From Haplodiscus bocki (lineage: Eukaryota): 64,000 nucleotides of DNA. Positions 26,603-64,000 of the stretch are shown piece by piece (the first letter of the stretch is position 1; the number at the start of each line of letters is the position of its first letter). The notes beneath the pieces were generated by a model. That model did not search any database. It saw only the letters and a program-made list of their open reading frames with translations, and was not told the origin of the DNA. Position numbers and translations under genes: made by a program. The DNA is taken from assembly GCA_965655095.1 (NCBI GenBank), contig OZ296656.1:13144001-13208000 (forward strand), read 5' to 3'.

Positions 26603-29165
26603 TAGTAGTAGAGTCTTTAGGGCTTGAGCCCATGGGTTTTCATTCATTATTTTCCAAATTGGCACGAGTTTGTCAGTTTTGAGTGTATATTGCAATCTCC
26701 GCAGTGACAGTATAATCTCCAAATGCACATGACATTCTCGTTGAAATGGTTTCGGAAGCAGTGCCAATAATTTGCAGTGAACGTTTTCTTATTCATCAAC
26801 GTTTCAATTCTCTTGAATAGGTGGCGTCTCAATGTTGAATAAGACAGCTGCACGAACACTGAAGTTTTCGTCACATCTCTTCAGGGATGATAAATTCATT
26901 TAGCGCTGTCTGACTAGTTCTCGAACCTGTAGCGGTTGATAAGGCCTTACAAGTGTCGATGTTGTACTTGCCTTCGATCACTTACATGAGGAAAAGAAGG
27001 TCATGAAGTTCAAAGTACATCGACAGAGGCAGTAATTTCGATGCAAGGAGGCGATCTTTATAGGACAGGACAGACGTACATAGAATCCAGGTACTTGCTC
27101 GTCTTTGCAACCTTTCTATTTCCTTCATATCACTTTTACTGGGGTACCAGCCTAGACTAGCATAACTGAATATGGGAACCACAGAGCCAAGATAAACGTT
27201 TAAATTTGTTGGCTCAGCAACAGTGGGAAAAATATTTCTCTTCACAAAACAGAATCTACGGCAGCCTTTCTGAAATCTTGTTTCACAGTTAATCGACCAT
27301 GAGAGCGATGAGTTGATCGTAACACCCAGATCACGTTGATTCTTTACAATCTGTAAGGGGGACAAAATTCAGCTTCGCCCTTGAAGTTTACAATGCTGCA
27401 TTCGTTTGTGCTCAATTGCATTCTATTGTCTACATACCATTTTTGAATCACCGCAATGTCTTTCTGCATTCCAAGTCGATTAGTCGATAATCGTTTTTAA
27501 TCATCGGCGTAGCCGAACGGCTCGCAGCTACTCAGTGAATCGCAGATGTCGTTAACATAGTAGGGGACGTACTATGAAACCAGGAGGAACCCCGTTTGCT
27601 ACTTTTATTGAATTTGAGACGCAATCGCCGATACGGACTTGCTGTTACTTTTGGAGGAGATAACTTTGTTTCAACCTCAAGGATTTGTCTCCGATACCCA
27701 TGGCAAAAAGTTTGTCGACCACCTTTTGATGTGGGACGCAGTCAAAAGCCTTCTTGAAATCTAAGTTAAGGACAGAGAGGTTCTCAACGGCTGCGTTTAG
27801 GGGTTTGTAGATATCATCAAGCTACAGAAGTAGTTGTATCACGGCAGACCTATCTTTGCGGAAACCGAATTGGGAGTCAACCAATTGGAGGAAACAAATT
27901 CGTAAAGATCATCAAAGACTATTCTTTCAAATATCTTTGACACGTTCGTCAGTATATTGATTGGGCGATAGTTTTCTATTTGCCTTCTGTTACCATCTTT
28001 ATTCAATGGTACCACTTCAATGGCTTTCCAAGCAGTGGGAAATTCTCCTTCGTTCAAGCACCTTTGATAAGGCAGAAGTAGGAATTTGGACAAAACAGTT
28101 GCACTTTTCAGAAACACGTTTCCAACGTTGTCTGGTCCCCGAGCTTTTCTTATTCGTAGGGCATTTAGGCAATTCAATATTTGGTTCTCGGTGACTGACA
28201 TTCTGCTGAAAGCTGATGGAGGTGACTCCTCTAACTTTATAATTTGCCAAGAAAAGTTAAAGACGCTACCAATAAACTTGTTGAATAATGTTGCTTTGCC
28301 GAGGGCCTCTTCTGCTTCTTCGTTGTTGAAAAGCATTACAGATGGTAAAGGGGGCGTTTGTGGAGACATCTCAGGTATCCTTGTGTTGACGAAACCCTCT
28401 GCTTCTAAAGAGTTTGTCTTCGAAGGCTGTTATATCTTCCAATAATCGCGCTCGAATGGTTTTCTATTGCCTCTTGACTTTAAGTAAAAGTGACAGTGCG
28501 ACTCTGCAGTTTTTTCTTGAGAGTTTTCAGCTTCTTGATCTCATGTGAGGTGGGACTAGTGACCCAAGGAGGGAGCGTCGAACGATGTTGAGTTACACGA
28601 GGCACGTTCTCATATACTTCGTTTATCCGGTCGCACCATAATCTCAGTAGCTCGTTGACATTACTAAAGCAGTATGGTTGGAACGGATTTTGGACAATGT
28701 AAAGATTTAGTTGATGCCAGTCAACTTTTTTGAAGCAGTTCTTTGGCCTAGGTTTTGTCTTTTGGGCATGGAAGCACAGGTCAATGTAGACGGAATATGA
28801 AACATAGTCAGAGCAAGGTTTTCCATGTATTGAGTAATCGTTAGTCATTCCAACATGTTCAGATGCAGCACTAACGATGTTTGGGTTATTTGACAAGAAG
28901 ACATCCAACTGTTTTGGTGCCCCAGTATGAAGAAACTCCTCAAGGCCCATATCCAGGAAAACTTTCAGTATTTACTCTTCCTAAAAGTCGGTGGAGTTTA
29001 GAGAGTTCCCATTGGTTTGTTCAGATTCAAGTCACCAGTGAGAAAGAGTAAAGAAGGAGTATGACATTGCGCATATGTGTTCATAGAAGTCAAAAGTTTC
29101 ATGAAATCTGTGGGAGGCATCCTATCGTCACTTCGAGCAGGTGGATTGTAGTATAACATTAGAAA
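26603..29165 (-). mobile_element. 5'-truncated CR1/L2-type LINE in the MBLAC1 intron, decayed
   Basis: YNPP and TGDLNL (endonuclease), GPDNVG, NYRPINIL, DFKKAFD, GYADD (~27500), QRDLGV; (TAC)3 tail at 26603-26611. Confidence 0.9.
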
Positions 29166-32115: not shown

Positions 32116-34990
32116 TTAACAATTGAGTCGCCAAGAGCACAGGTTTTCTTCACAAAAGATGTTGATGAAGAACTTCCAGTGATAATCTTGGATACCTTCT
32201 TTCACGTAGCACAATTCTTGTAAATTTGCAGTTCTTGATAATCTTCGGTGAAGTTGAAGAGTTCTGTACCAAAAATTGTCTTTGCTTTTGCTCCTCCTTA
32301 TTTTTGGTAAATGAAACGGGGATGATGTTGTTGTTCTCAGGGCGCTTTTTTCAATAGGGGTGATGTGCCTTTTCCAGTCGAAGTTGTATTGATCAGCTAC
32401 TATTTTACAGGTTAGTAAATAGTGCATTTCGATGTATAAATAAATTCACAACAGCTTCAGTTGGATCAAGCGGGTTTTGTAGTCTACTTGAGATGTTCTG
32501 CAAATCCATTTCGTTACTCTCTTCTGTACCAGTTCGACTTCTTTCCTGGATGTCCTGTTTGCATGCCAGACTTGAGAACAGTGTGTCAAAAATGGTACGA
32601 CATACCCACATTACATATTTAGGCGTGAACACAACGAACTCAATAGTGAGGTGTTCCCTTTTAGATTGAAAAAGGCTCGATAGGCTTTGTTGCATCTAGT
32701 CTTTGTTTGTTCAAACCACGAGAGGTCTTCCGAAAATACGACACCGATGTTTCGCTCGAATGGAGATGTTTGGAGGTTTACGTTCTTCGCTCTGAATTTT
32801 TGGGAGTCATCGCCGTGGAACATCATCAAAAGAGTTTTTTCAACATTGATTTCCACTTTGTTCTGGTCGCACCACTGGACAAATCGATCAAAATCTTCTT
32901 GTATTTCCATCGGGTTGGAAGACATGATATTGGTGTCATCGGCGCACATGTCGATGCTACTGGTGGTAACGACTTTTGGTGGACTGTTCCAGAAAACAAG
33001 GAAGAGGAGTGGGCCCAAAATTAATCCCTGCGGGACTCCACTGGTTACTGGTAATTCCGGTGATTTCTTTGTTCCAACTTTCACAGGTTGCATTCGATTG
33101 TCCAGAAAACTTCTCACAATGTCAACTGTCTTATTTGGAACTCCAGTTGCGTGTAGAGCTTCCAGGATGCGTTTATGGTCCAGCTTGTCAAAAGCTTTGG
33201 CAACGTCATTGTACACCGTTGCAAGGAATTTTGTCGGAGAGTCCAGGGTTCTGTAAATTTCATCTGTGTACGCTAAGAGTTGCAAGAGTTTGGAACGCTT
33301 CGGAACAAAACCGTACTGACTTGGGTGAACTTTCGAAAGAAATATTTCAGCAATGGTTTTCTCGATCATTTTCTCCCAAACTTTGTATATGTTACAGAGG
33401 AGTGATATTGGTCTATTTTTCTGTACCAGTGATCGATCCGTATCTTCAAAAATTGGAGTTATTTCCAACTTTTTCCAGAAGGTGGGAAAGCATCGTTTAT
33501 TATAGAAAGTTCTAAAGATAACGGATAGAGAATTTGCAAGAGATTCAGAACATTTGTTGAGCATAATGTTCGGTAGATTGTCCGGTCCACAGGCTTTTTG
33601 GGGCTTGAAGTTTTGAAGTAGATTTGTAATGTTGTCATTTGAGAAATGTGGTTCTATCGATTGGTCTACCAATATCGCAGGTATTTCGTTAAAGTCGGCA
33701 GTACATTCATCTTCACGGTCGTTAGATTTCGAAAAGACACTACAGAAGAAAGTATTAAAATGAACGCTCTTCTCTTCGTCAGTGTTAGCTGTTGAGTTCT
33801 CATGGTAAATTTCGGTCGGTATGGGATCAGGCCGACGAATATAGCGTAGGTATTTTTGGATCGTGCTAAATTGTCATGATTTAAAAATACTTTCTTCGTA
33901 TAGCATGAGATCTTCGTTGATCTTTGAGGCCACCAGGTCTTCTAGACTTCCAACTTTGTTTCGTAGTGCAGGCAATGGTTCAGAATTCAATTTGCGTTGT
34001 AGAGACTTCAGTTTTCTGATGACGCAAGATGTTGTTGATGTGACCCAGATTGGGAGACTGCTTCTATGATTAGTACGTATGGGAATTGTGGCAAGCATGA
34101 TTTCATGAAGCCACTCATACCACGTTTTCAAAAGTTTGTCGCAATTACTATAGCAGTATGGAAAGAAGGGGTTTTCAATGATGTACTTGTTGACCTTGTT
34201 GAAATCCACTCTTGAGTAGGAAAATGCGTGAGTCTGGGTTGTTTTAACAGAAGGAGTTTGCATATCGAAGAAAATTGAGAAAGGTTCATGATCAAAGCGA
34301 AAGCGTCCATTAAGAAAAGCACTTTTGCTTAAAAAGGTATTGCTAAACCATCGAACTACTTTTTCTGGATTTTCAGCAGGCAAATATCAAGTGAGCCGCT
34401 TGTTGTTTTCCTTAGAATTTGTTCGAAGCCGCTGTTCACGAACATTCCAGCAATGGAGTTTTCATTGTCACTCGTGCTTGAGAAACTGTACCAATCAGTT
34501 AACGCGAGTTTGATGTCTCCAGTGACGATGATTTCTGCTTTGTAGTACTGTTGTTGAACCTTGTCAATTTCTTGCAGTAAGTGGGTAAATTTACTGCTAG
34601 CCCATCGATAAGGACTATTTTCAGGGGGACAGTAAACCGATAAAACTAAAAGATGAACTGAACAAAAATGGCAGACAATGCCCACAACGTCTTCAAAAAC
34701 GTTGAACTCGGTAATTTCTTTGCAGGGTGTCGAGCTGTCGACGGCAATTAGTACGCCACCGTGACTCGATTTCCCGGTTCTGTTAGGTTGTCAATCACGA
34801 CGGAATATTGACTGGTCTCCAAGAAATAGGCCACTGTTTGGTATTGTGTCTACTAGCCAAGTTTCGTACAGGCAAATGATGTGGAATTGTTGCAAGGCAA
34901 GTGCATTTGTTAAAACTGTTCGTCGATTCAAATCGACCATACTTCTAACATTCCACATCAGTAGGTGTACTTGCGTTTCGTGACTGTCCG
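32116..34990 (-). pseudogene. LINE ORF2 (APE endonuclease + reverse transcriptase), multiple frameshifts
   Basis: WNVRSM, LYETWL, HGGVLIAV, YCPP, TGDIKL, LDICL, DH; RT GPDNLP, RPISLL, QYGF, DVAKAFD, SGVPQG..GPLLF, CADD. Confidence 0.93.
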
Positions 34991-35839
34991 CCACGTTGTC
35001 GTAAACCTCTTCCCAAATCCCTTGGTCATTTTGCATCTCAAGTTTGAGATTTCGGATTCGAATCTTCTCCCTAGGAACTCCTTGATCGATTTTATTTTTC
35101 TCATTCGCAGTGAACCGTTTTCAGTTTTTAGTTCTTCGATTGTAAGCTCCTTCGAGAGAAACACTGGTCCCGACAACTCTCGGTAATTCTTCATTTCTCG
35201 TGAGGCCTTCAACAGAAGTGTACGACACGCTTCGTTATCGACATGTACTATCAGAGTTCGTCGCTTGGGACTGAGGTCTTTGAATTGGCCAACTCTTCTT
35301 AGGCTTTTGACATTGCACTTCTTTCCGGCAAGAAACTCGGAGACAGATTCTACTTTCTCCATGTCTTTCGTGAACGCTTTGTCAGGAAGAATGCCAGGCA
35401 TTTCAGGAATGCCTCGTAGTCGAAGGCCTCTGGGTCCTGCAACCTTTGTTTCAAATGCTTTCACTTGAACAGGCTGTTCTAGCTCCGAGGCAATGTCTTT
35501 AGTTTCTTTTTTCAGAGCCACAACAGATGCGTACGTGTCGCTAACGTTCATTTTGTACTCGTCGAGTTTGTCTTGTATTGCTTGCAGTTTGTGGTTGTTT
35601 TCTTCTTCGAGGCGGCTCATTCTGGTGGCGTAGACGTCTTGAATCAGCGTTTCGCGTTTATTTTCAGCGAACAAATTGCAAAGGAAGAGCACGTTTCTTG
35701 TCAGTTCTTGAAAATTTTTGACAACTGAAGCTGAGAAACCAGTACATTCTGGCGTCATGTGGAGTACTACACCACAAGAAAAGCACCAAAAGCGTTGTGT
35801 TCCAGATACTTTCTCATCGCAAGTTTTGCATGTGGTCAT
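34958..35839 (-). CDS. LINE ORF1: PHD finger, coiled coil, RRM-like domain
   Basis: CxxC..CxxC..H..C..C N-terminus, heptad-rich middle, LRLRGIPE..RRVG..R.LIV..VFLSKELT; C-terminus probably frameshifted. Confidence 0.85.
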   Translation of the reverse strand: MTTCKTCDEKVSGTQRFWCFSCGVVLHMTPECTGFSASVVKNFQELTRNVLFLCNLFAENKRETLIQDVYATRMSRLEEENNHKLQAIQDKLDEYKMNVSDTYASVVALKKETKDIASELEQPVQVKAFETKVAGPRGLRLRGIPEMPGILPDKAFTKDMEKVESVSEFLAGKKCNVKSLRRVGQFKDLSPKRRTLIVHVDNEACRTLLLKASREMKNYRELSGPVFLSKELTIEELKTENGSLRMRKIKSIKEFLGRRFESEISNLRCKMTKGFGKRFTTTWRTVTKRKYTY

Positions 35840-36140
35840 GCCACGTTTGCGGGTTTCTGATGGACTGATTCTTTGAGCTCCCAGCCACCAAGCAAAGTCC
35901 GTGATAATTAAATCTCAGGAGTCACGAGGAAATCAAGAGAACAAAGTTTCCAAACCTGTAGACTTTTCTCGGGTCCCAAGCAACGTCCGAGATAATTAAA
36001 TCTCAGGGGTCACGAGGAAAACGGGAAAGGAATGTTTCAAGAACTGTGCACGTGATAAAGGCGTTACGTTCAGTTTTGTCCGTTTTGGTTTATTCGCTGC
36101 TTCAAGGAGGGTTTGTTCTCACAGCTTTTGGAGCGGGTTT

Positions 36141-46315: not shown

Positions 46316-48150
46316 GGTTACATGTCATTTCGTCCTACGCCATTTCAACCGCTGCAATTTCAACCGTTTACACTTTCGACCGTTCTCACTTTCAACCGCT
46401 GGCCTTTTCGACCGCTTGCAAATTCAACCGCTTGCAAAATCAACCGCCACAAATTCGACCTATTTAATTAAGTTCAAGGTTATTCAATTTTTTAAAGACG
46501 TTCGAAAACAAGTAAAGTAATTATAGAATCAATTAAACTTCATCAATAAGACAGTGTTAGGTAATTTCCAAAGGTCATATTGGACAAACTACCATATGTA
46601 CCAAACTTGAAAATGATGTTTCTGAACGCCATTAGGAAGAAATCAGATGCAATTAGCATCTCACTAGGACAACAAACTCGAAGGGACTTTGATTTCTTGT
46701 CACCGGCTTTGAACATTTTTCTAAAGGGTTAGCCAGCCCGTAGTCCAAATGTACTTCCGATCTCACAAGAGACAATGTCTCTTGGATTAAACTGTACAGC
46801 CAGTCATGTTAATGTTCTGAGACGCACTCCGGGAGGCTGCAAGGAGGCGTCAAGACAAAAAATCAAACATCCCTTCACGTAATGATTGTTTTTTCTGCGA
46901 AAAAAAAACAAAAACGGAATTTTATTCAGAAGACAAAAAAAGAATATTTACAGAAAAAAAACATACTAAAAATGTCTAAACGTTTTTTATCTAAATTTTG
47001 CTACTGCTCTGAGATATGGCACAGCATTTTCGAACTCATAAGTGCTTTGGATATTTTGCATCTGTTTTTTTATTTTTTCGTATCGGGGGCGCTTGGAGCA
47101 CAATAATCCGGCAGTTTCTTGAACATATTTAAACTTCTGCATTTTCGAATCCTTTTCCAAGTTCCGTAAGAGCAACCAAATATTCGGCGTAGAACCACTA
47201 AAATACGCCTGCAGTCCGTAATGCCAGCCTTCTACGCTATTTGTTGTCCGGGCTACCCCCTCTCCTGCTGCATCGTACTGGTTCCACATTTCGATTGGAA
47301 AAGGCGGTTTCTTATTAACAATTGGGTTTTCTATATATGTACTTTTGAAATATATTGCAAGCTCATCCATTTTTTCGACGACACTTTCTTCGAACTGTTC
47401 ACTCTCGATAACGTCTGTTATTTCCTCAATAACAAGCTCAAAAGTAAGCTGAACTGCATAATCATCCGAAATCTCGTATATTTCATTGGCAATTGCCACA
47501 GTTGGTGTTGAATATTCGGCTCTTCTTTTAATTTGGTTCACAATTTCTTTCGCTTTACATTCGCCGGGGTCGCATTCGTGATTATGGGTACCTTTTGTTT
47601 CGATGACAGTTTCGTTTTTAGTTTTCAAGATTGCGGGACATTTCAACTTATAATATTTTGTGCAACGCCAGTGGATACAGTTATTAGTTGATTGTTTCTG
47701 ATTATATGAGTGGCCGTCGTGAAGTGCAATTTTTCCGCCTCGGTTTGATTCTATAATTTGAACTTGCATTTTGGAACGTCTGATGGGTGCTGCTACTGGA
47801 AAACTGAATGGCTCAAAATTTTTACACAATTTCGATTACGATTAGGTGCGAACGGTGTCAATTTCCTATCATCGGTGTGTAAATTGCTGAATCCGGTAAC
47901 TACGACGCTTTTATATTCAAACCTTATTTTAATTATTACGTTTAAAAAGGATTAATCTTAATTACACTTAGTTACTGTAATTAATTGATTACTATATAAT
48001 TGAAGCGGTTGAATTTGCGGCGGTTGAAATTGCATGCGGTTGAAATGGCACGCGGTTGAAAGTGTGAAAGGTTGAAAGTGTGAACGGTTGAAATTGCAGC
48101 GGTTGAAATTGCAGCGGTTGAAATGGCATAGGACGAAATGTCCTGACACC
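46316..48150 (-). mobile_element. Mutator-like (MULE) DNA transposon, internally deleted
   Basis: ~150-bp TIRs (GG..CATTTCGTCCTA.GCCATTTCAACCG) made of ~15-bp TTTCAACCG subrepeats; 8-bp TSD CCCAAAAC at 46308-46315 and 48151-48158. Confidence 0.92.
46987..47769 (-). CDS. FLYWCH domain fused in frame to C-terminal part of a MULE transposase
   Basis: SNRGG..GHSY..WRC..KCPA..HNH (FLYWCH); YFKSTYI..FPIEMWN..RTTNSVEGWH; central DD-containing core absent. Confidence 0.85.
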   Translation of the reverse strand: MQVQIIESNRGGKIALHDGHSYNQKQSTNNCIHWRCTKYYKLKCPAILKTKNETVIETKGTHNHECDPGECKAKEIVNQIKRRAEYSTPTVAIANEIYEISDDYAVQLTFELVIEEITDVIESEQFEESVVEKMDELAIYFKSTYIENPIVNKKPPFPIEMWNQYDAAGEGVARTTNSVEGWHYGLQAYFSGSTPNIWLLLRNLEKDSKMQKFKYVQETAGLLCSKRPRYEKIKKQMQNIQSTYEFENAVPYLRAVAKFR

Positions 48151-52779: not shown

Positions 52780-53286
52780 TGTATTATTCTAACGAATATT
52801 CTAAGACTAGCTATATTCTAATTGGAGAAGCATGATCTCAATTTAGTTCAATTTTTTTTCATCAAACCTAGGAGCTACTAGATTTTTTGATGTACCTTTT
52901 CTTGACAACGAACCCTCTCCTAACCGGAAATATTAAGATCCGGAAACATAAACAACTAATAAATCAGTGGGCAAGAAATAAATATCTAAAAATAGCATGG
53001 AATTTAAATGCAAAGGAGAGATAGTGAAGATGAACTTATATTGAACTCTACTTTCCGCATGATGACAAAAATAATACTGGATAATTTATGAAGCTGTAAA
53101 TAAGACATTTAAGGAGAGAGAGCAGATTTTGGGATTGCTACTGACTAGGTCCCTATTTTCCTGAAAAAAATCTTCAATCAAGATAAAGAATATTCTCCTC
53201 ACGTCACGCGCTGAAGAAAACCACTAAAGAATGAATTGTAGTCTTTAGGCTAGAAGGGGAAGGATATCAAAGATCTATATCTTACA
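52780..53286 (+). repeat. 5' LTR (507 bp, TG...CA)
   Basis: Matches 63807-64000; ends ..cttaCA immediately before TGG of the PBS. Confidence 0.9.
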
Positions 53287-53304
53287 TGGTGACAAGGAGG
53301 AAGT
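53287..53304 (+). promoter_or_regulatory. Primer binding site
   Basis: TGGTGACAAGGAGG directly after LTR; primer tRNA not identified. Confidence 0.7.
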
Positions 53305-53328: not shown

Positions 53329-54480
53329 ATGGCAGCAGCAAACCCACAACCACATATTACTCTCAACCCATTCCGCGGAAAAGCAGATGAAAAATTGGCC
53401 GGATTTCGAAAGTCTTGTCAAAAGTCTCGTCAATGTTGGCATTATCCCAAACGCCAACCAACCCCAGTTTCTTCGACTTCACTTACCAGATCAAACCCTG
53501 CAGTTCTTCAGGACTTTGCCACAAGCCATCAGAGATGACTTTGATGCAGCAATAACGGCACTGAGAAATCATTACTGCAACCCAAACCTCCGAGAACACA
53601 CAAACTACAGCTTCACAACTTAAAATTTGACCACAAGCATGGTAGTCCAGGAGACTTTTTGGTAAAAGTGCAGATAAAAGCAACACAAGCTTAGCCAGAT
53701 CCAGTGTTACAACCAATTCCGCCAGCTAACCCATCGAATGAACAAGCAGAAACTGACAGAGTCCAGAACGCACGAGATGCCAACCAAGCAGTACTAGACA
53801 ATGCAGTTAATGAGCGAAACAGGAGAATCAAGGAAATCTTCACGAACGCCATGCCAAACTTTATCAAAAGAAAACTACTGTACCAAAATGAGGCAGCAAC
53901 AGTGCAAGACCTTTGTGCAGTTGCAAGACGCCAAATGGTGTTCTTCGAACTTTGACAAAGTGACAAATGGACGAGAGATGCCTTCAATGAGGTTAGTTCA
54001 ACACTTTCAAAAAACTTAGTAGGGGCCTTAACAAAACTTACACAGCAACAAGATGAACTGGAAGAACAACAAACAGGCTTATCTAATAGAATCAACTCTC
54101 TGAACCTCCCAAGCCACCAAGATTCCAACATTAGTAACAATGGTTTCATCCCCTCACAACGCGGCAATTACAGATTCAACAATCAACGAGGGTTCAGAGG
54201 ACGGGGATATGCCAACAACAGAGGACGAGGGCGCTTCAAAAAAAAAACAGGTTTCTTCAATGGTAATCAAAAGCGTACGGACTACAGCTCCTATTCCAAC
54301 TATAACTCACCTCAAATTCAGGAACCCACCAAATAAGAGCTTATAGCGGAAACTGCATATTCCAAACAGGTATGTTACATTTGTGGTTACCCAAACCACT
54401 ATGCAAAAGATTGTAACAAACGGAGACCAGCGAACAGAAACCATTAAATACCATACCAAAGCGCACCAAAAAACGAGTGA
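53329..54480 (+). pseudogene. gag (capsid + CCHC nucleocapsid)
   Basis: MAAANPQP..PFRG..FLRLHL..LQFFRTLP; RG-rich segment; CYICGYPNHYAKDC at ~54373-54414; ends PKNE*. Confidence 0.88.
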
Positions 54481-57400
54481 TGCCACACCAGTGTGAAAAA
54501 CGACGGAAGACGACGGATGAACAAAATGAAATAACAGCATGCATTTCTCTTGAAGGTGATGTCCTATCTTATGTTCCACTGAAGTTCCCTAACAACCAAC
54601 AAAGGAAAGCACTAATAGATACTGGTGCCTGTGCAAATGCGATCAATAAAAAAGACTACGAGGACCTGAAATCATCTTTTGGAGCAACAGTCAGTATCTC
54701 AAAACCTTCTGAGGTCAGTAAAGTTAAATTAGCTTCGGAACAACTTCTACCCGTGCGTGGCCAAATGGAAGTCAAATTTTCAATAGCAGAAAATTATTTC
54801 AAAGAACAGTTCCTAGTACTTCCACACACAAACAGTATCATTTTAGGAAATCCATTTTTCAAAAACAACTCTACTGAACCTTACCCCAGAGAGAATCTGA
54901 TGAAATTACCCAACTTAACGCTGCGCAGTGGAACGAAACATCAACACAGACTGATAAATCGCGAAAACCCCAATACACTGTTAGAACAATGGAAAAATGC
55001 GGTACTGCCCCCAACCAACGAGCTACATTAAAATGCAACCTTTCAATGAAAAGCGAACGATTTGCTGATGTATGTGGTATTGCAGAACCAAAAATGAGCT
55101 TTGAAGAAAAAACAGGACTGTGCATCACTTCTTCATTATCACGAACTGACTCGGATGGAAACTTGTACTTATCTGCCTTAAACCTTCAAACCATTGAGAT
55201 CACTATTTCCCGAAATTCGGACAATGCACTTTTCAATTTTCTCTCACCCCAACAAGCAGAAACATTAACCCCGATAGAGCCACAACTACTATCAATGGCC
55301 AAATTCAAAAATCCAGACGACTTTGAGAATGAAATCAACCAGCTGATAATTGACGAAGAGTTTAATGCAGATTCTCAACCACCTCGACCAAAACCCGACT
55401 ATAAAAGATTCTGGTTCCCAACGCCAGAAACATGCAAGAACCCCACAGCACTGAAAGGTGTTGAGAAGAGAATCTAGAATGAACTAGAGAAGCTAAGGGA
55501 ATTAGACAGTATAGACCCACACATTATTGATGGATACCGTAAACAGTTTCTACAGAGATTCAATTAGAACAAATCTTTACTTAAAGTGGATGAAAAACAG
55601 CAAGTTCAAGACTTCTTGATAGAAGTTTCGGATAATTTTGCTAAACAGAGATTTGATGTTGGATATATTTCCGAGATTTCAATGAAGCTAACACCAGAAA
55701 ATGACCAACCGGTCTACACCTATAGCCCATCAACGCCGATTCACTTACGTGAAGAACTACAAGTAGAGCTTGCCCTTCTACAATTTTTTGGAATCATTAC
55801 AAGCCTCAAATATCCAAAATACAGAAGCCCAATCTTTGCACACCGCAAACCAACTGGAGAACTCAGAATTCTAGTGGACCTACGCCGAATCAACCACCTT
55901 CTCCTACATGAATATCATAACAATAAGTTCCCGATTTCTACAATGGCAGACGCAACAGCACATTTTGCTGGAAAATCAACCTTTTGTAAATTAGATTGCT
56001 CTCAAGCTTAAAATTGTGTACAAATGGCAATTAGATTGCTCTCAAGCTTAAAATTGTGTACAAATGGCTGACCCGCTTTCGGTACAACTACTTGCTTTCA
56101 ATTTTGCTTCCCGAACTGTGGCTTACCAAAGACTAGCGAAAGGTCTGAACAGATCAGTCACAGGCTTCAGTGCTTTTGTGAGAAACTACTTAGAGCCATG
56201 TCTCTCAGCAAAGGTTTGTACACAGTTCATGGATAATATTGGATGTGGAGCGGAATCATTTGAACAAGTCATACCCAATTTACGACTCATCCTCAAATGC
56301 TTATGCAGACCAGGACTCAAACTATTGCCAGAAAAATGTGTTTTTGGATCAGAAAAAGTTAGTTTCCTTGGATATGTCATAACTACAGAGGGCTTACGAC
56401 CTGAAAAAGACAAAATCGAAAAATTTCTGAGAAACCTTGAAACACTAAAATCAGTGAAAAAAGTAAAACGATTAATAGGTTTCCTACAATTCTTTCGAAG
56501 CTTCATCCCGAACCTGAACGAACACCTCATACCTTTCTACAAACTTTTGCGCGAAAATGTCTCGTTTGAAATAACAGATGAAATCAAGAATGCATTTGAA
56601 GTACTACAAGAAAAACTCCAAATCACCGCAACACAAACTCTTCGACTCGCCAAACCGGGACTGCAATACGCCATTCTTTGTGACGCTATTTACCACTCCA
56701 GCGGATTTGTACTAATGATCGAAGACTACATCAACAACAACCAAGGAGAAACTGTTAAGTCTTATGCTCCCGTCTCTTTCGGATCTAAAGTTTTCAATAC
56801 AGCGCAACTAAAGATGTCAATATATGGCTAGGAATTCTTATCTCTTTACTTTGCTGTGGAAACGTTTTCTCATTTTATATGGGGAAGTGAAAAACCAGTA
56901 CTCATACTGACTGACAACAAAAGTTTGACCAGATTCGTCCAAGCCAAAACCAGTCCCCATCACTTCGGAATTATGTGGATATAGTTACAGCATTTAACAT
57001 TGTGGTAACTCACATTCCAGGAAAAACCAATGCTGCAGCAGATTTCCTATCTCGTTTGCAATCAAACCCGAATGAAACAATTGAATTGAAACTTACGGAC
57101 AGGATCCCAATCAAAGAAATTGAAATAGATGTACGAGCAAAGCTACCAGACAAAACAATCAATGAGCTCTTTGCAGAAAAGTTACCTGTTGACCAACTCC
57201 ACGTAGTCGACATAAACACACTGATAACCCTCAAACAATCCCGACACTATGCTCAGGCGGAAGTTAACCAACTAACAAGTTTGATATCAGATAGAGAACT
57301 ATAATTGACGAAACACAACAGGAAAATAACAAAGGAACGCCACCCAACACACAAACCCGATGGACGACTACCCCGAATTGGAAACAACAATTACTAACCT

Positions 57401-59340: not shown

Positions 59341-59770
59341 TCACAAGTGACAACGGTAGAAGAAGAACTTTTTGGAACTTCATTTGGCATGGTACATTGT
59401 GTTTCTTCCGACTTTTTCATGGGAGCAGGTTTTGCTAAGCGATTTGACCGACTCTATCCATAATGAAAACAGAAGCCTGCAAAAAACTAACACCAGGATC
59501 AGTGTTATCATTTTACGACTTTTATTCACAAAGACGGATATACAATTTGGTATCGAAACTAAAATACTTCCACAAACCCTTCTATGATGCATTGAAGAGC
59601 ACCCTTTTCTTGATGCGCAATCAAGCTGAGGCTCATCGCGTGAAAAACATTCGACTACCAGAACTTGGATGTGGCCTATACAAACTTTAATCACCAATAG
59701 TGCACAAAATTCTACACGAAATTTTCCATCAGACAACTGTATGTATAACATTTTGTATTAGAAACGATAA
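59341..59770 (+). pseudogene. TARG1/OARD1 (DarG-related) macrodomain, one frameshift and one stop
   Basis: ELF..MVHCVSSDFFMGAGFAKRF..IYNLVSK.KYFHKPFY..L..MR..IRLPELGCGL, colinear with TARG1 (AHCISEDCRMGAGIA..IYYLITK..HKPTY..MPRIGCGLD). Confidence 0.88.
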
Positions 59771-62148
59771 GGTATTGAAACGGAACGGCTAAACAGACAC
59801 TGAACCGAAAAAGATTGGCAAAGAGACAGAAAAAGTCCCAAGATAAAAAAATTCCCAAATTCTTGAACACCACAAAAAATACAAGAACTGACGACAAAAA
59901 AACCCCGGAGAACCCGCGGAATGGAAAATTTCTGTATGTAAGGCTCAGGGACAGGTTTTTACCCAGCTACATTGCAACAAAGGAACCAGTTTTGCAATGA
60001 AGTCCAAAAACACCTCAAAAACCATGCTAGTCATCAACGAACGCGCACTTCGACTGAGAGACCGAAAAGCTTTAGTGCAGTCCTATAAACCTCAGCATCA
60101 AGCACAGAGAATGCCGGTTACAGTAGGATACTAGGCCTAAACTATTCGGTACAAAACCACTATATTTATGGAAAAACTTCACCATAAAAATGTTCACCCT
60201 ATAAAAACGGCTGAACGCGGACTTCGTCTGCCTAAGATTAGTGAGTGAGGCCAAGACATCATACCTTCTCGAACGCCTAAACCAAAGCTTGTTTCAATGG
60301 GATATAAGGCATCTCGGCGTATGCAAAGAAATTTTTTAAGAAATATAACGAAAAACAGAGCCCCCTAACCATCATTTAGAACAAATATTAAACTAACCGA
60401 GGTATTTGCGAACGGTCCGATGTTTTCGAGAACCAAACTTCTTTCTTGTGACGCCGCTCCGTTTTCCACGTAATCCTTGATAGATACGCTCTTTGCTCCC
60501 CCGAGTCACATTCCAGCACTTGATCTCCAATCTTGCAGCAACAGCAGGAGAGTGACGAAGGTTGTGAGATAATAACACATTCCAATTTTCATTTGGACCC
60601 ACAGATAAAACTAGATGGGCAGTACGAGCAAGTAAACAAGCAGTGTCTCCGACCTCTTGCACACAATATGTTAGACCCCGAAATTGCTTTTAAATAACTC
60701 CCTCAATAAAATACTCAAAATTGCTGGCCTCTCTTACACTTGGTAACTACGCCGCCTCCCTGGACCATTTGGAAGCAAAAACCCAGATTTTCCGACCCCG
60801 TAAAAGCATGGTAATAACTTCTGTCGAAGGATCATCATCTCTGTGCCACCCAGTAACACAAAAACCCGTTGATACCAGGAGAATAGGGTCATGAACTCAA
60901 CTCACGGGTAGTATAGCACTGTTAAGCCATAAGTCATATCTTTGCGAATTTTCAATACGCGGCACTAGTGCAGTCAAAACCCTTGTTTCGGGAAATGCAC
61001 ATAAATTAGGTTTAGCTTCGCCCCAATTTTTGAAGTAACGTAATAATTGAGGAATATTAATGCAATTTAGAGCTAACGCTTGATGTTTCACTGACTTGTA
61101 AGAACAACTGACTCCCTTCACAATACAGGGACTGTCACACTTGGCAGCCTCCTCCACGGACGTTGGCTCCAAAGCACTGAAGTTGTCCGAGCACAAACTG
61201 AGAAGTAGATTATACTTTTCCTTTCTAAACTCTCAAAAGTAGCAACATTGCGTTACATGCCCATGATTTGGAAGAAACAGACACACAGAGGAATACACCT
61301 TCATACTCATATTTTTAAGCATGCTCAGTAACCAAGTGAGTGAAATTAAATTCCAATTGCAAATTTTTCTCTTGCAAAAACATAAAGGAAGATACACATT
61401 CAATTTGCAAATCACTTCCAATCAACTAACACAACGCCTACACCTAAACGGTAGTAATCTAACTAGAGTATCAAACTGAACTAAGCAATGACAGTGCTTA
61501 AACTGCAAATAAAGCTCTTAGTCTGCAATGACTGTCCCTCATGCTGTCTGTTCTTTCTTCCGTCCAACCAAAAAAAAACAACAGAACGCAGAAGAACAAC
61601 AGGAACGAAACCCCCAGAAGGACATACTTCCCCACTTCCGGTTCATAACCAGTAGCTAGAAGACTGCCATAACTTAAACCCGGACATTGCTCAGCACGAT
61701 GAGGAGAAAAACTCTCCCTTCGGTAGCCCTGCCAAACGGTTGTTCCATCATCGCAACATTTCAGGATGGCGTCGGCAAACAAAGTAACAAATGAACATTC
61801 CATTCTCTGAAAAACAATAGCATAACTCAGAAATATGTAAAAAAACAGCAGGTCGCCAAAGCCCAAAAACAACTGGTCACTTTACAATAGGCGACAAAAA
61901 GCTCATTACCTCAGCGAAAAAAATAAATTAGGCCTTTTTCCAGTTAAACGACAAAGTTTAAAAAAGGTTTTCAATGAGAAAACAGCCAAAAAAAATTTCA
62001 GAGGACACCTAAGACGTCGCCGACATCAATATCCGCCGGAAAAACAACTACCAACTAAGTTACTTCTAGCGATTCGCCCGTAAAAACGACACTTCTACAA
62101 TTTTTTACCCAGCGTGCGAACCGACGAAAAAGCAAAAAAACACAACAA

Positions 62149-62433
62149 ATGGACGAATTTGACGTTAAATTACAGTGGGATCAACCTGGAAAAGATACCC
62201 TGCTTACGATACACCGAATTCAATGGCAAAAATGCTCCGGTTGTGCACCTCTGAGACTTTTAATCAGCGAACCTAACATGAACAATGGCCAAAAAGCGAT
62301 CTTTGATATTTCCACAACAAACAAGAAATTCGTTAACCTCTACAAATTGCTACGTCTGTATTTATCTACTCATCTGACTGAACTGGATGCCTTAGTTCAA
62401 TTCATGAGAAATCAAATTATTGAAAAAGCCTAG
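62149..62433 (+). CDS. Accessory hypothetical protein within the Gypsy element
   Basis: Clean ATG-to-stop 94-aa ORF, sense to the element; contains CSGC; no recognised family. Confidence 0.4.
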   Translation: MDEFDVKLQWDQPGKDTLLTIHRIQWQKCSGCAPLRLLISEPNMNNGQKAIFDISTTNKKFVNLYKLLRLYLSTHLTELDALVQFMRNQIIEKA

Positions 62434-62649
62434 TTGGCTCCACTGGAACACTAACAAATGCATTTCATGATCCAGCAATAACCATGACAGCTCTGACAAC
62501 CTGTTCATATCTGACCGGACACATTTAAAAATCCGTACCAACAAAATTTAATATCCGGCGAAGTCCCGCCCACATCAACTTTAATATCTGTCAAAACACA
62601 GATACTGAATGCTCGGAATTACAATTCGTTTTCTACTGCGACAATCATT

Positions 62650-63630
62650 CTACCACTTGTTCTCAATAGTGGTACCTCTACCCCAAATGGACGAAAACAC
62701 GGCAATTAAAAAGGATGTGGGGGCAGAATTTTTGGCAGTGTCAGAAAATTTGATGGAGGTTTTGCTTGTAACGAGAGATCAACTTGACAAATGTATTAGT
62801 TCAAGCAAGTATCGAATATGCCATGAAACTTTGGCCACAAAAAATAAAGACTCGTCATGCCTCGTAATTTTATATTTTGGAATTATCATGGATGCGTTAG
62901 AAGTCTGTGAAACAGTCACAGTCCCACTACCACTGAAAGCTGAAGCAACAAATCTGGGATATGGAGTATGGCTAATAACTTCAGCCAACGCCAACTTCGA
63001 ATTCAGAGAAAATTATATGGATGCTAAAACATTGGCAGGTTCGAAAACAGTCAAAGGATGTAGAATCTGCGTAATAACGCTAGAATGAGGTAAACAGTTA
63101 ACTGGTGAAAATAACAGGATCCGGTCTGACCTATCGTCATGTGCAAAAGTCCCACCAGTCAAACTGGACAAGGAACTGCCTCAACCAATGGCACGCTTTT
63201 CAGCCTATTGCCAACAGTGGATGAACTACCTTACTACAATACGAAACTGGAGGCTAATATGAAACTATTGAAGTCGGTCAAACTCGAACTTCAAACCCAA
63301 CCACAATATGGCTACAGAAAGAACATTCAACAAATAGCTGAAGCCATCGCACAGAAACTAACGATGCTAAAGCCCTCTTTTGAAAAACAATTCAAAAACT
63401 ATTTATCCTGGAAAAGTCAATTGGTTAGTGGAAATGCAGTAGTGATCCTTAGTGCGGTACTACACTTGGGACTAATGTTGGCGCTACACCGCTACAAAAA
63501 ACTCCACAAATTCCAACCCCTCTCTCACAAACTGGACAAACAAAAAATTCCCCTAAAACCAATAATGGTGGTAGAAGACCAACACTTTGATCGGGTACAG
63601 GATGATGAAAATTTCCGAAGGCGTAATTAA
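62650..63630 (+). pseudogene. env-like glycoprotein, C-terminal half (baculovirus F/errantivirus env-like)
   Basis: VPLP..EFLAVSE..QLDKC..ICHE..SSCL..C..LGYGVWLI..GCRIC..C Cys pattern, then TM (LVSGNAVVILSAVLHLGLMLAL) and cytoplasmic tail just before the 3' LTR. Confidence 0.75.
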
Positions 63631-63806
63631 AGCTCACTACTACCCGAATCTCAACTGATGGATACCAGAGAAGAAAGTGCACCCACATATGCAGAGCTCA
63701 ATCGACAAATGCACCGAATTTAAAGAAGAAGTAGCCTGCAAGAAAGCATGGATAATATTTCATCAAATAAAAATAGAGCCGGAGAAATAAGCTTAACGTC
63801 GGCTAG

Positions 63807-64000
63807 TGTAATATTCTAACCAAAATTCTAAGATTAATTATATTCTAATTGGAGAATCTTGATCCCAATCTAATTCAATTTTATTTCATCAAACCTAGGA
63901 GCTACTAGATTCTTTGATGTATCTTTTCTTGACAACGAACCCTCCCCTAACCGGAAATATTAATATCCGGAAACATAAACAACTAATGAATCAGTGGGCA
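63807..64000 (+). repeat. 3' LTR (truncated by window end)
   Basis: Ungapped match to 52780-52973, 17 mismatches in 194 bp by hand count. Confidence 0.92.

What the first reader, a model, noticed from the sequence alone, without database searches (positions are those of the whole stretch)
59341..59770. TARG1/DarG-type macrodomain carried downstream of integrase in an env-bearing Gypsy element
Seen: after integrase and a Pro/Gln-rich linker lies a full macrodomain colinear with TARG1; the K84-equivalent Lys (LVSK) is kept and the D125-equivalent reads TAC (one change from GAC). Known: TARG1 removes ADP-ribose from acidic residues of proteins, and TARG1/DarG reverse thymidine-linked DNA ADP-ribosylation; RNA-virus macrodomains counter PARP defences. 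Inference: a retroelement-encoded counter-defence against host ADP-ribosylation of its proteins or cDNA, possibly as a pol C-terminal extension. Macrodomains have been noted in some retroelements, so novelty lies in the subclass and combination.
Basis: partly seen in the sequence, partly recalled or inferred. Interest (0 to 1): 0.8.

Follow-up and report, generated by a model that had tools for sequence, protein, structure and literature searches.

The report
Retrotransposon-borne ADP-ribose eraser domain
A family of envelope-carrying retrotransposons ends its Pol protein with a captured enzyme of the kind that strips ADP-ribose tags from DNA, RNA and proteins, which suggests these elements undo a host tagging response, although the copy in this window is itself dead.

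Summary
Confirmed and extended. 59341-59770 is a TARG1/OARD1-type macrodomain at the end of pol in an 11.5-kb Gypsy LTR element. The window copy is dead: the domain is split by a frameshift and a stop, the catalytic Asp is lost, and env lacks its first half. Natural relatives settle the open question: unbroken ORFs run integrase-linker-macrodomain-stop (P0017, 957 aa) and RT-RNase H-integrase-linker-macrodomain (sister family P0183, 1338 aa). Across sister families the linker is unalignable while the domain keeps 38-48% identity and the catalytic Lys/Asp. A model of an intact copy matches TARG1 (E 1e-15). Env is F-type. TARG1-type domains also occur in distant Gypsy Pol proteins at four positions, including sawfly and beetle records, so this is a recurring accessory domain, not a one-off. 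Most likely role: removing ADP-ribose from the element's own RNA or cDNA intermediates (inferred, about 0.5); no activity was tested. Two further leads: a decayed antisense JmjC-like gene between pol and env, and a diverged second macrodomain at the position that a recent paper calls 'pseudo-RNase H' in insect errantiviruses. Macrodomains in fish retroviruses are in print; I found no paper on TARG1-type Pol fusions.

The parts
52780..53287 (+). 5' LTR (TG...CA), followed directly by a TGG-starting primer-binding-site-like stretch
   Evidence: Direct repeat with 63807-64000, 17 differences in 194 nt; right end read from the sequence, not confirmed against the 3' LTR
53330..54480 (+). gag, broken by stops and frameshifts; CCHC-like knuckle near 54370-54420
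   Evidence: Position and sequence; weak Pfam DUF1759 E 0.0095
54480..57300 (+). pol: protease, RT, RNase H, in pieces; 40-nt tandem duplication at 55989-56068
   Evidence: Pfam gag-asp_proteas, RVT_1, RT_RNaseH_2; 61% identity to sister Pol P0183 over 308 aa
57400..58900 (+). integrase (zinc-binding, core, C-terminal part), broken
   Evidence: Pfam Integrase_H2C2 E 9.5e-15, rve E 2.2e-8; 76-83% identity to P0017
58900..59340 (+). Pro/Ser/Gln-rich linker, in frame between integrase C-terminus and macrodomain
   Evidence: linker position kept but sequence unalignable between sister families (22-32% over short local matches)
59341..59770 (+). TARG1/OARD1-type macrodomain, last domain of Pol; frame change near 59460, stop at 59688, Lys84 equivalent kept (59556), Asp125 equivalent not kept (59679)
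   Evidence: fold of intact relative
60393..61232 (-). Decayed antisense reading frame with a JmjC-like domain (His-x-Asp near 60845, distal His near 60617); membership in the element family untested
   Evidence: Pfam JmjC E 0.004 over profile 3-109 of 114, below the curated cut-off; 4 stops in 280 codons against 11-20 in the other five frames; 8 of 2000 shuffles as stop-poor
62149..62433 (+). Unexplained 94-aa ORF upstream of the env remnant
   Evidence: no Pfam match; singleton cluster
62609..63720 (+). C-terminal half of an F-type env (cysteine-rich ectodomain end, transmembrane helix, tail), frameshifted near 63190
   Evidence: 76-83% identity to 729-aa relatives P0203/P0206 from about residue 351-358 on; relatives P0186, P0192 pass the Baculo_F cut-off
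63807..64000 (+). Start of the 3' LTR, cut by the window end

Best explanation
Shown: this Gypsy lineage makes a Pol polyprotein whose last domain, hung on a variable low-complexity linker behind integrase, is a TARG1-type macrodomain kept under constraint with its catalytic Lys and Asp; the window copy is a dead insertion. Inferred: as part of Pol the domain is carried into the particle and stays near the genomic RNA, the reverse-transcription intermediates and the cDNA ends. It is an active ADP-ribosyl hydrolase working through the lysyl-ADP-ribose intermediate of TARG1, and its selected job is to strip ADP-ribose that host PARP-family enzymes put on these nucleic acids (bases in single-stranded RNA or DNA, phosphates at ends and nicks), marks that would stall RT or block integration and gap ligation. 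Whether the host mark is a dedicated defence or a by-product of break sensing cannot be told apart here.
For: In-frame fusion in natural ORFs P0004, P0011, P0017 and sister families P0183, P0134. Between sister families integrase 53-66%, macrodomain 38-48%, linker unalignable. Column conservation in six lineages follows that in 121 other homologues (Spearman 0.61 over 141 columns; 0.83 in the 34 strongly conserved columns against 0.42 in the 73 variable ones). Lys84: 18 of 21 family rows, 6 of 6 sister rows, 8 of 8 other-LTR rows; Asp125: 20 of 21, 6 of 6, 7 of 8. Model of P0003 matches TARG1 (4j5q, E 1.4e-15, TM 0.90 by target, rmsd 1.5) ahead of DarG, Poa1p and alphavirus macrodomains. The three basic positions that TARG1 needs for RNA docking (K50, R86, R126; bioRxiv 2026.03.31.715305, section 7) are all basic in 10 of 21 family rows against 11 of 121 other rows; net charge of 11 element lineages is higher than the rest, p 0.03. 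TARG1 is reported as the hydrolase for base-linked DNA and RNA ADP-ribose and for PARP1 marks on single-stranded DNA at unligated fragments (PMC8501950 passages; PMC11102865 abstract), and one of several for DNA-end marks (PMC5725667 abstract). The same subclass turns up in other Gypsy Pol proteins, in invertebrate viruses, and fused to DNA ligase 3 and PNKP.
Against: No activity or substrate was tested. The full basic triad is in 0 of 6 sister rows and 2 of 8 other-LTR rows, so the nucleic-acid signal is family-specific and the charge test is weak (related rows, Pol proteins are basic anyway). Position 119 is acidic in 16 of 21 family rows where most homologues are basic, effect unknown. Only 7 of 19 near relatives keep the published TARG1 pattern, because most are decayed copies. 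One search for PARP1, retroviral integration, retrotransposon and ADP-ribosylation together gave a single unrelated paper: I have no literature showing that a host ADP-ribosylates a Gypsy element's nucleic acid. No codon-level selection test was possible.
Confidence: 0.5

Rival explanations
1. Active hydrolase, but on proteins: it removes Glu/Asp-linked ADP-ribose from the element's own Gag/Pol or from host immune and silencing proteins, as RNA-virus macrodomains do.
For: TARG1 cleaves acidic-residue protein marks with the same Lys/Asp (PMC8501950, PMC6397177 passages). Best viral structural neighbours are invertebrate RNA-virus and small DNA-virus proteins. The basic triad is not general among element lineages.
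Against: The known viral protein erasers are a different macrodomain clade (PMC6397177) and rank far below TARG1 for the model; the recurring choice of the subclass that uniquely removes base-linked marks, and the basic surface in this family, point to nucleic acid.
Confidence: 0.22
2. One reading: placed where chromoviruses carry a chromodomain, the domain binds ADP-ribosylated chromatin or PAR at breaks and steers integration or recruits repair; hydrolysis is secondary.
For: C-terminal to integrase on a long linker in this clade and in P0090, the chromodomain position (PMC13524379 passages). Host-type homologues are fused to ligase 3, PNKP and HMG boxes.
Against: Catalytic Lys and Asp are as well kept as binding residues. 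In other Gypsy elements the domain lies before the protease, after it, or between RNase H and integrase, so a link to integrase is not required.
Confidence: 0.18
3. Passenger: a recently captured host gene piece, nested insertion or processed pseudogene without a function for the element.
For: The window copy decays evenly: 6 of 34 conserved and 19 of 107 other columns differ from P0003. Nine-base repeats occur on both flanks.
Against: Even decay fits a dead insertion (LTRs 8.8% apart, stops throughout pol). The domain is in frame in at least three diverged families whose linkers are unrelated, forms one well-supported clade (100/98) and keeps its active site. The 9-mers are A-rich, lie inside coding linker and are expected by chance in 200 x 200 nt.
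Confidence: 0.04

Closest known systems
Human TARG1/OARD1/C6orf130 (PDB 4j5q, 4j5r, 4j5s)
   Same: Fold (TM 0.90), 36% identity, His32, Cys33, Ser35, Thr83, Lys84, Pro118, GxG loop and Asp125 in intact copies
   Different: Last domain of a retroelement polyprotein, not a free host enzyme; position 20 Asn or Asp, position 119 acidic in this family; window copy broken
DarG antitoxin macrodomain (5m3e; NCBIfam NF048014)
   Same: Same clade and catalytic Lys; P0003 scores E 3.9e-10, TM 0.83
   Different: 23% identity, 39.5 bits against a cut-off of 250, no C-terminal DarG domain, no DarT partner seen in the element
Env-carrying Ty3/gypsy elements (errantiviruses in the wide sense; PMC13524379)
   Same: LTR-gag-pol-env layout, F-type env with furin site, fusion-peptide-like stretch and transmembrane helix in relatives
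   Different: That survey of 1512 elements has no mention of macrodomains in text or supplements; it describes chromodomains at this position
Macro-domain ORFs of fish epsilon-like endogenous retroviruses (Basta et al. 2009, seen only as cited in PMC4977317)
   Same: Macrodomain captured by an env-bearing LTR retroelement
   Different: Retroviridae, described as additional ORFs; subclass not stated in the passage seen; primary paper not available
RNA-virus Mac1/X domains
   Same: Parasite-encoded ADP-ribose eraser inside a polyprotein
   Different: Different macrodomain clade and mechanism; 10-14% identity to the model
AlkB/2-ODD ORF of orchid Gypsy elements (PMC9289625)
   Same: Gypsy element carrying an eraser of a host nucleic-acid mark; nearest precedent also for the JmjC-like ORF
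   Different: m6A demethylase in a separate ORF in plants

Membership tests
TARG1/OARD1-type macrodomain | Closest solved relative by sequence and fold is TARG1 | tested here: met
TARG1/OARD1-type macrodomain | Catalytic Lys84 and Asp125 in the element family | tested here: met
   Lys 18 of 21 and 6 of 6; Asp 20 of 21 and 6 of 6; fragments under 105 residues left out, one of which (P0022) has Glu at the Asp position
TARG1/OARD1-type macrodomain | Catalytic pair and unbroken frame in the window copy | tested here: not met
   Lys kept, Asp position Tyr, frame change and stop
TARG1/OARD1-type macrodomain | Published pattern TKx(30,35)Px[IL]GxGxD (PMC6397177) | tested here: met
   Met by P0003, P0004, P0006, P0013, P0017 and 4 of 4 sister proteins; 7 of 19 near relatives overall; 0 of 1 for the window piece
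TARG1/OARD1-type macrodomain | ADP-ribosyl hydrolase activity via a lysyl intermediate | not testable with these tools
   Needs biochemistry
DarG antitoxin | Full-length DarG profile score and linked DarT toxin | tested here: not met
   39.5 bits against cut-off 250; no Pfam toxin match in element ORFs or intervening frames
Ty3/Gypsy LTR element | Two LTRs and order protease-RT-RNase H-integrase | tested here: met
Ty3/Gypsy LTR element | Target-site duplication | not testable with these tools
   The window ends inside the 3' LTR
Env-bearing (errantivirus-like) element | F-type env between pol and 3' LTR | tested here: met
   2 of 9 close relatives pass Baculo_F; full-length P0203, P0206 do not score but show signal-like start, furin site and transmembrane helix; window keeps only the C-terminal half
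JmjC 2-oxoglutarate/Fe(II) oxygenase (antisense ORF) | His-x-Asp...His triad inside a JmjC profile match above cut-off | tested here: inconclusive
   Triad present, E 0.004, 18 bits against cut-off 24; no PDB, NCBIfam, phage or GTDB hit; single-sequence model uninformative, pLDDT 32
Nested insertion or processed pseudogene | Own target-site duplication, out of frame with the host element, absent from other copies | tested here: not met
   In frame and present in 15 contigs of relatives and in sister families

The most novel reading that the evidence does not exclude
ADP-ribosylation of retroelement RNA or cDNA is a widespread, so far undescribed restriction pathway in invertebrates, and Gypsy elements answer it with TARG1-type erasers built into Pol: gained or moved several times (four positions in Pol), and possibly carried by nearly all insect errantiviruses if their 'pseudo-RNase H' domain is a diverged TARG1 macrodomain, as the second domain of the sawfly Pol P0096 suggests. 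The element in this window would add a second eraser, an antisense JmjC oxygenase, making it a two-enzyme counter-modification cassette alongside env.
Probability: 0.3. Interest if true: 0.85.

Novelty: new variant of a known kind. Interest (0 to 1): 0.62.

Why it matters
[quoted passage not shown] A parasite that keeps the one eraser subclass known to remove base-linked marks, fused to its replication protein, points to retroelements as natural targets and offers small, naturally intact enzymes to test that. It adds TARG1 to the short list of accessory Pol domains and gives a cheap check on a published domain assignment (pseudo-RNase H) that concerns a large clade of insect elements.

Tried and rejected
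Pfam on the raw window pieces barely sees the domain (Macro E 0.08); the PDB search and a custom profile were needed. Multiple independent captures: trees put other LTR-borne domains in four places, but the AU test does not reject a single origin (p 0.186), so I do not claim it; one origin followed by moves within Pol stays possible. Donor of the domain: not resolved, no host TARG1 of this organism was in hand. JmjC-like ORF: PDB, phage tblastn, NCBIfam, GTDB scan gave nothing; the model failed; the whole 960-codon frame did not score, and a fixed-grid scan of 280-codon blocks did not pick the region (10 of 456 blocks, none here), so the shuffle result is for a region chosen after seeing it. 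Atlas search of the env piece was uninformative; atlas search of the P0096 domain returned only stand-alone Macro/OARD1-like clusters. No tRNA genes in the window, so the primer tRNA is unassigned. Papers checked without any macrodomain mention: PMC6338049 (first quarter and term search), PMC6431247, PMC5408684, PMC9289625 (term searches), PMC13524379 (term search, section 7, supplement search); PMC4695847 and bioRxiv 2021.11.30.470311 mention the terms in unrelated contexts.

Full report
Observation. The stretch 59341-59770 lies inside an LTR element whose repeats start at 52780 and 63807 and differ at 17 of 194 comparable bases. Between them lie gag, protease, RT, RNase H and integrase in Gypsy order, all in pieces. 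After the integrase C-terminus a Pro/Ser/Gln-rich linker runs in frame into the first 40 residues of a macrodomain; the frame changes near 59460 and the rest follows with a stop at 59688. Both pieces hit only TARG1/OARD1 chains in the PDB (E 0.03 and 4.8e-9), and a profile of 121 other homologues finds only these two places among 324 six-frame segments of the window. The Lys84 equivalent is kept and the Asp125 position reads Tyr.

Is it part of Pol? Yes. Two searches with the C-terminal piece gave 3 of 31 and 5 of 5 candidates as relatives, and cluster look-up added twelve more proteins. P0017 is a natural 957-aa ORF from the end of RNase H through integrase and linker to the macrodomain and a stop, 76-83% identical to the window; P0004 and P0011 show the same fusion. 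A search of 1.84 billion representatives with P0020 gave 1981 hits at E 0.001, of which I saw the best 150. Among them and their clusters are sister families: P0183, one 1338-aa ORF with RT, RNase H, integrase, linker and macrodomain, 61% identical to the window in RT, and P0134. Between P0017, P0183 and P0134 integrase is 53-66% identical, the macrodomain 38-48%, and the linkers give only short local matches of 22-32%. The domains of this group form one clade (91 in the 156-row quick tree, 100/98 in the 45-row careful tree). Left out of the trees: fragments under 105 residues, ten members of one cluster and the two window pieces. P0036, P0051 and P0131 were added to the group after seeing the first tree and have no retroelement domain in their ORFs.

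Is it under constraint? At protein level, yes. Lys84 is present in 18 of 21 family rows, 6 of 6 sister rows and 121 of 121 other rows; Asp125 in 20 of 21 (one gap; P0131 aligns poorly there), 6 of 6 and 118 of 121. His32, Cys33, Ser35, Thr83, Pro118 and the glycine loop follow suit. Conservation across six lineages tracks that of the other homologues (rho 0.61, 141 columns). The window copy differs from P0003 equally at conserved and variable columns (6 of 34, 19 of 107), as expected of a dead insertion (all). The published TARG1 pattern (PMC6397177, introduction and first results read) is met by 7 of 19 near relatives, 4 of 4 sisters, 5 of 7 other LTR proteins and 122 of 150 representatives. 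A model of P0003 on a 70-row alignment has pLDDT above 85 over the domain and matches TARG1 best (4j5q, E 1.4e-15, TM 0.90, rmsd 1.5), then DarG (TM 0.83), Poa1p and alphavirus domains; the alignment consisted of TARG1-like proteins, so this confirms compatibility, not activity. One difference stands out: position 119, mostly basic elsewhere, is acidic in 16 of 21 family rows.

Env. The piece at 62669-63085 found 9 relatives among 245 candidates; two pass the Baculo_F cut-off. Full-length relatives of 729 aa have a signal-like start, a furin site at 127-130, a hydrophobic stretch after it and a transmembrane helix near 630, though they do not score on Pfam themselves. The window keeps only the part from about residue 358. 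Of 15 contigs with macrodomain-bearing relatives, 8 have the same length as contigs with env relatives (15 of 19 members of the main env cluster were listed), which I read as the same elements.

How widespread? I scanned 60 of the 150 representatives, mostly the longest, with Pfam and a few more. Five of the 60 carry retroelement domains at E 0.001: P0090 (RT-RNase H-integrase-macro, only 23-27% identical to this Pol), P0096 (sawfly Athalia rosae XP_048515211.1, two macrodomains between RNase H and integrase), P0047 with its cluster mate P0172 (same position), P0052 (after the protease) and P0118 (beetle Exocentrus adspersus KAJ8910199.1, before the protease). Other fusions are to DNA ligase 3, PNKP, HMG box, NADAR, SLOG and TatD. 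The trees scatter these LTR-borne domains, but holding all thirteen together is not rejected (p-AU 0.186). The nearest viral structures are Kadipiro virus VP8, a cressdnavirus protein and thrips-associated RNA-virus polyproteins.

Mechanism. Shown are the fusion, the constraint and the active-site residues. Inferred: a Pol domain travels with the RNA genome and cDNA. TARG1 uses Lys84 and Asp125, reverses thymidine-linked DNA marks and rescues DarT (PMC8501950, passages), removes PARP1 marks from single-stranded DNA at unligated fragments (PMC11102865, abstract), removes end-phosphate marks along with other hydrolases (PMC5725667, abstract) and selectively removes uracil- and guanine-linked RNA marks using a basic patch K50/R86/R126 (bioRxiv 2026.03.31.715305, abstract and section 7). 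Reverse transcription and integration pass through just such single-stranded, nicked and end-exposed states (general knowledge). All three basic positions are basic in 10 of 21 family rows against 11 of 121 others, but in 0 of 6 sisters. I put protection of the element's nucleic acids at 0.5, protein de-modification at 0.22, a reader or tether role at 0.18 and no function at 0.04.

Beyond the finding. On the minus strand between pol and env, 60393-61232 is a stop-poor frame (4 in 280 codons against 11-20; lower AT skew than the rest of the element; 8 of 2000 shuffles) that matches Pfam JmjC over nearly the whole profile at E 0.004 with a His-x-Asp...His triad. It is below the cut-off, other searches and the model gave nothing, and I could not test whether sister copies have it; I put it at about 0.75 for a decayed JmjC gene and 0.5 that it belongs to the family. 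Second, the domain of P0096 directly before integrase (907-1043) scores 62 bits on the TARG1-type profile against at most 7.5 in 1000 shuffles and keeps His32, Ser35, Lys84 and Asp125. This is the position where PMC13524379 (section 7) reports a five-stranded 'pseudo-RNase H' in almost all insect errantiviruses. That the two are the same domain is a lead from one protein, not a test; I did not check that P0096 belongs to that group.

Novelty. Accessory domains in LTR elements are a known kind, including an AlkB-type eraser in orchid Gypsy elements (PMC9289625, passages), and macro-domain ORFs are reported for fish endogenous retroviruses (PMC4977317, passage citing Basta 2009; the primary paper was not held). 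Nine searches of the open-access library showed no paper on TARG1-type domains in Gypsy Pol or on JmjC in LTR elements; I saw listings only, for 61, 70 and 89 the top 20-30 of 46, 450 and 71. The survey of 1512 env-bearing Gypsy elements does not use the word in text or in seven supplements. Subscription journals and Repbase reports were not searched, and I recall, from no call, that automated domain annotation labels such fusions and that macrodomains are noted in some non-LTR elements. Verdict: real, selected in the family, dead in this copy; a new variant of a known kind; interest 0.62.

Noticed in passing
window 60393-61232, minus strand: Decayed JmjC-like frame, antisense, between pol and env, with a cysteine-rich stretch upstream of the JmjC part; Pfam E 0.004, triad present.
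   Followed up: partly
P0096 residues 907-1043 (Athalia rosae XP_048515211.1): Second, diverged TARG1-type macrodomain directly before integrase, at the position described as 'pseudo-RNase H' in insect errantiviruses (PMC13524379).
   Followed up: partly
window 62059-62433 (+), ATG at 62149: Open frame of 94-124 aa just before the env remnant, no family match; singleton cluster.
   Followed up: partly
window about 62600-62670: Junction where the first half of env is missing; whether by deletion or replacement is unknown.
   Followed up: partly
window 55989-56068: Perfect 40-nt tandem duplication inside RT, shifting the frame.
   Followed up: no
window 739-4881, minus strand: Cluster of ORFs with an integrase core (Pfam rve) and an A32-like ATPase, resembling a Polinton/Maverick remnant (label recalled).
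   Followed up: partly
window 9379-10803, minus strand: Host annexin gene with a long Pro/Gly/Tyr/Gln N-terminus, annexin A7/A11-like; indicates an animal host.
   Followed up: partly
window 27839-28971 and 32611-35914, minus strand: Decayed non-LTR retrotransposons (RT E 2.7e-29; ORF1-like frame with a C1/PHD-like start).
   Followed up: partly
window 46316-48150: FLYWCH-domain ORF (46987-47835) between 110-nt inverted repeats, probably a small DNA transposon.
   Followed up: no
window 13310-13869: Tandem array of about five 122-nt units.
   Followed up: no
P0144, P0157, P0069, P0089, P0099, P0141, P0111, P0142: TARG1-type domains fused to DNA ligase 3 or its BRCT, PNKP and an HMG box in unnamed proteins.
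   Followed up: no
top hits: TARG1-like folds in Kadipiro virus VP8, a cressdnavirus protein and thrips-associated RNA-virus polyproteins.
   Followed up: no
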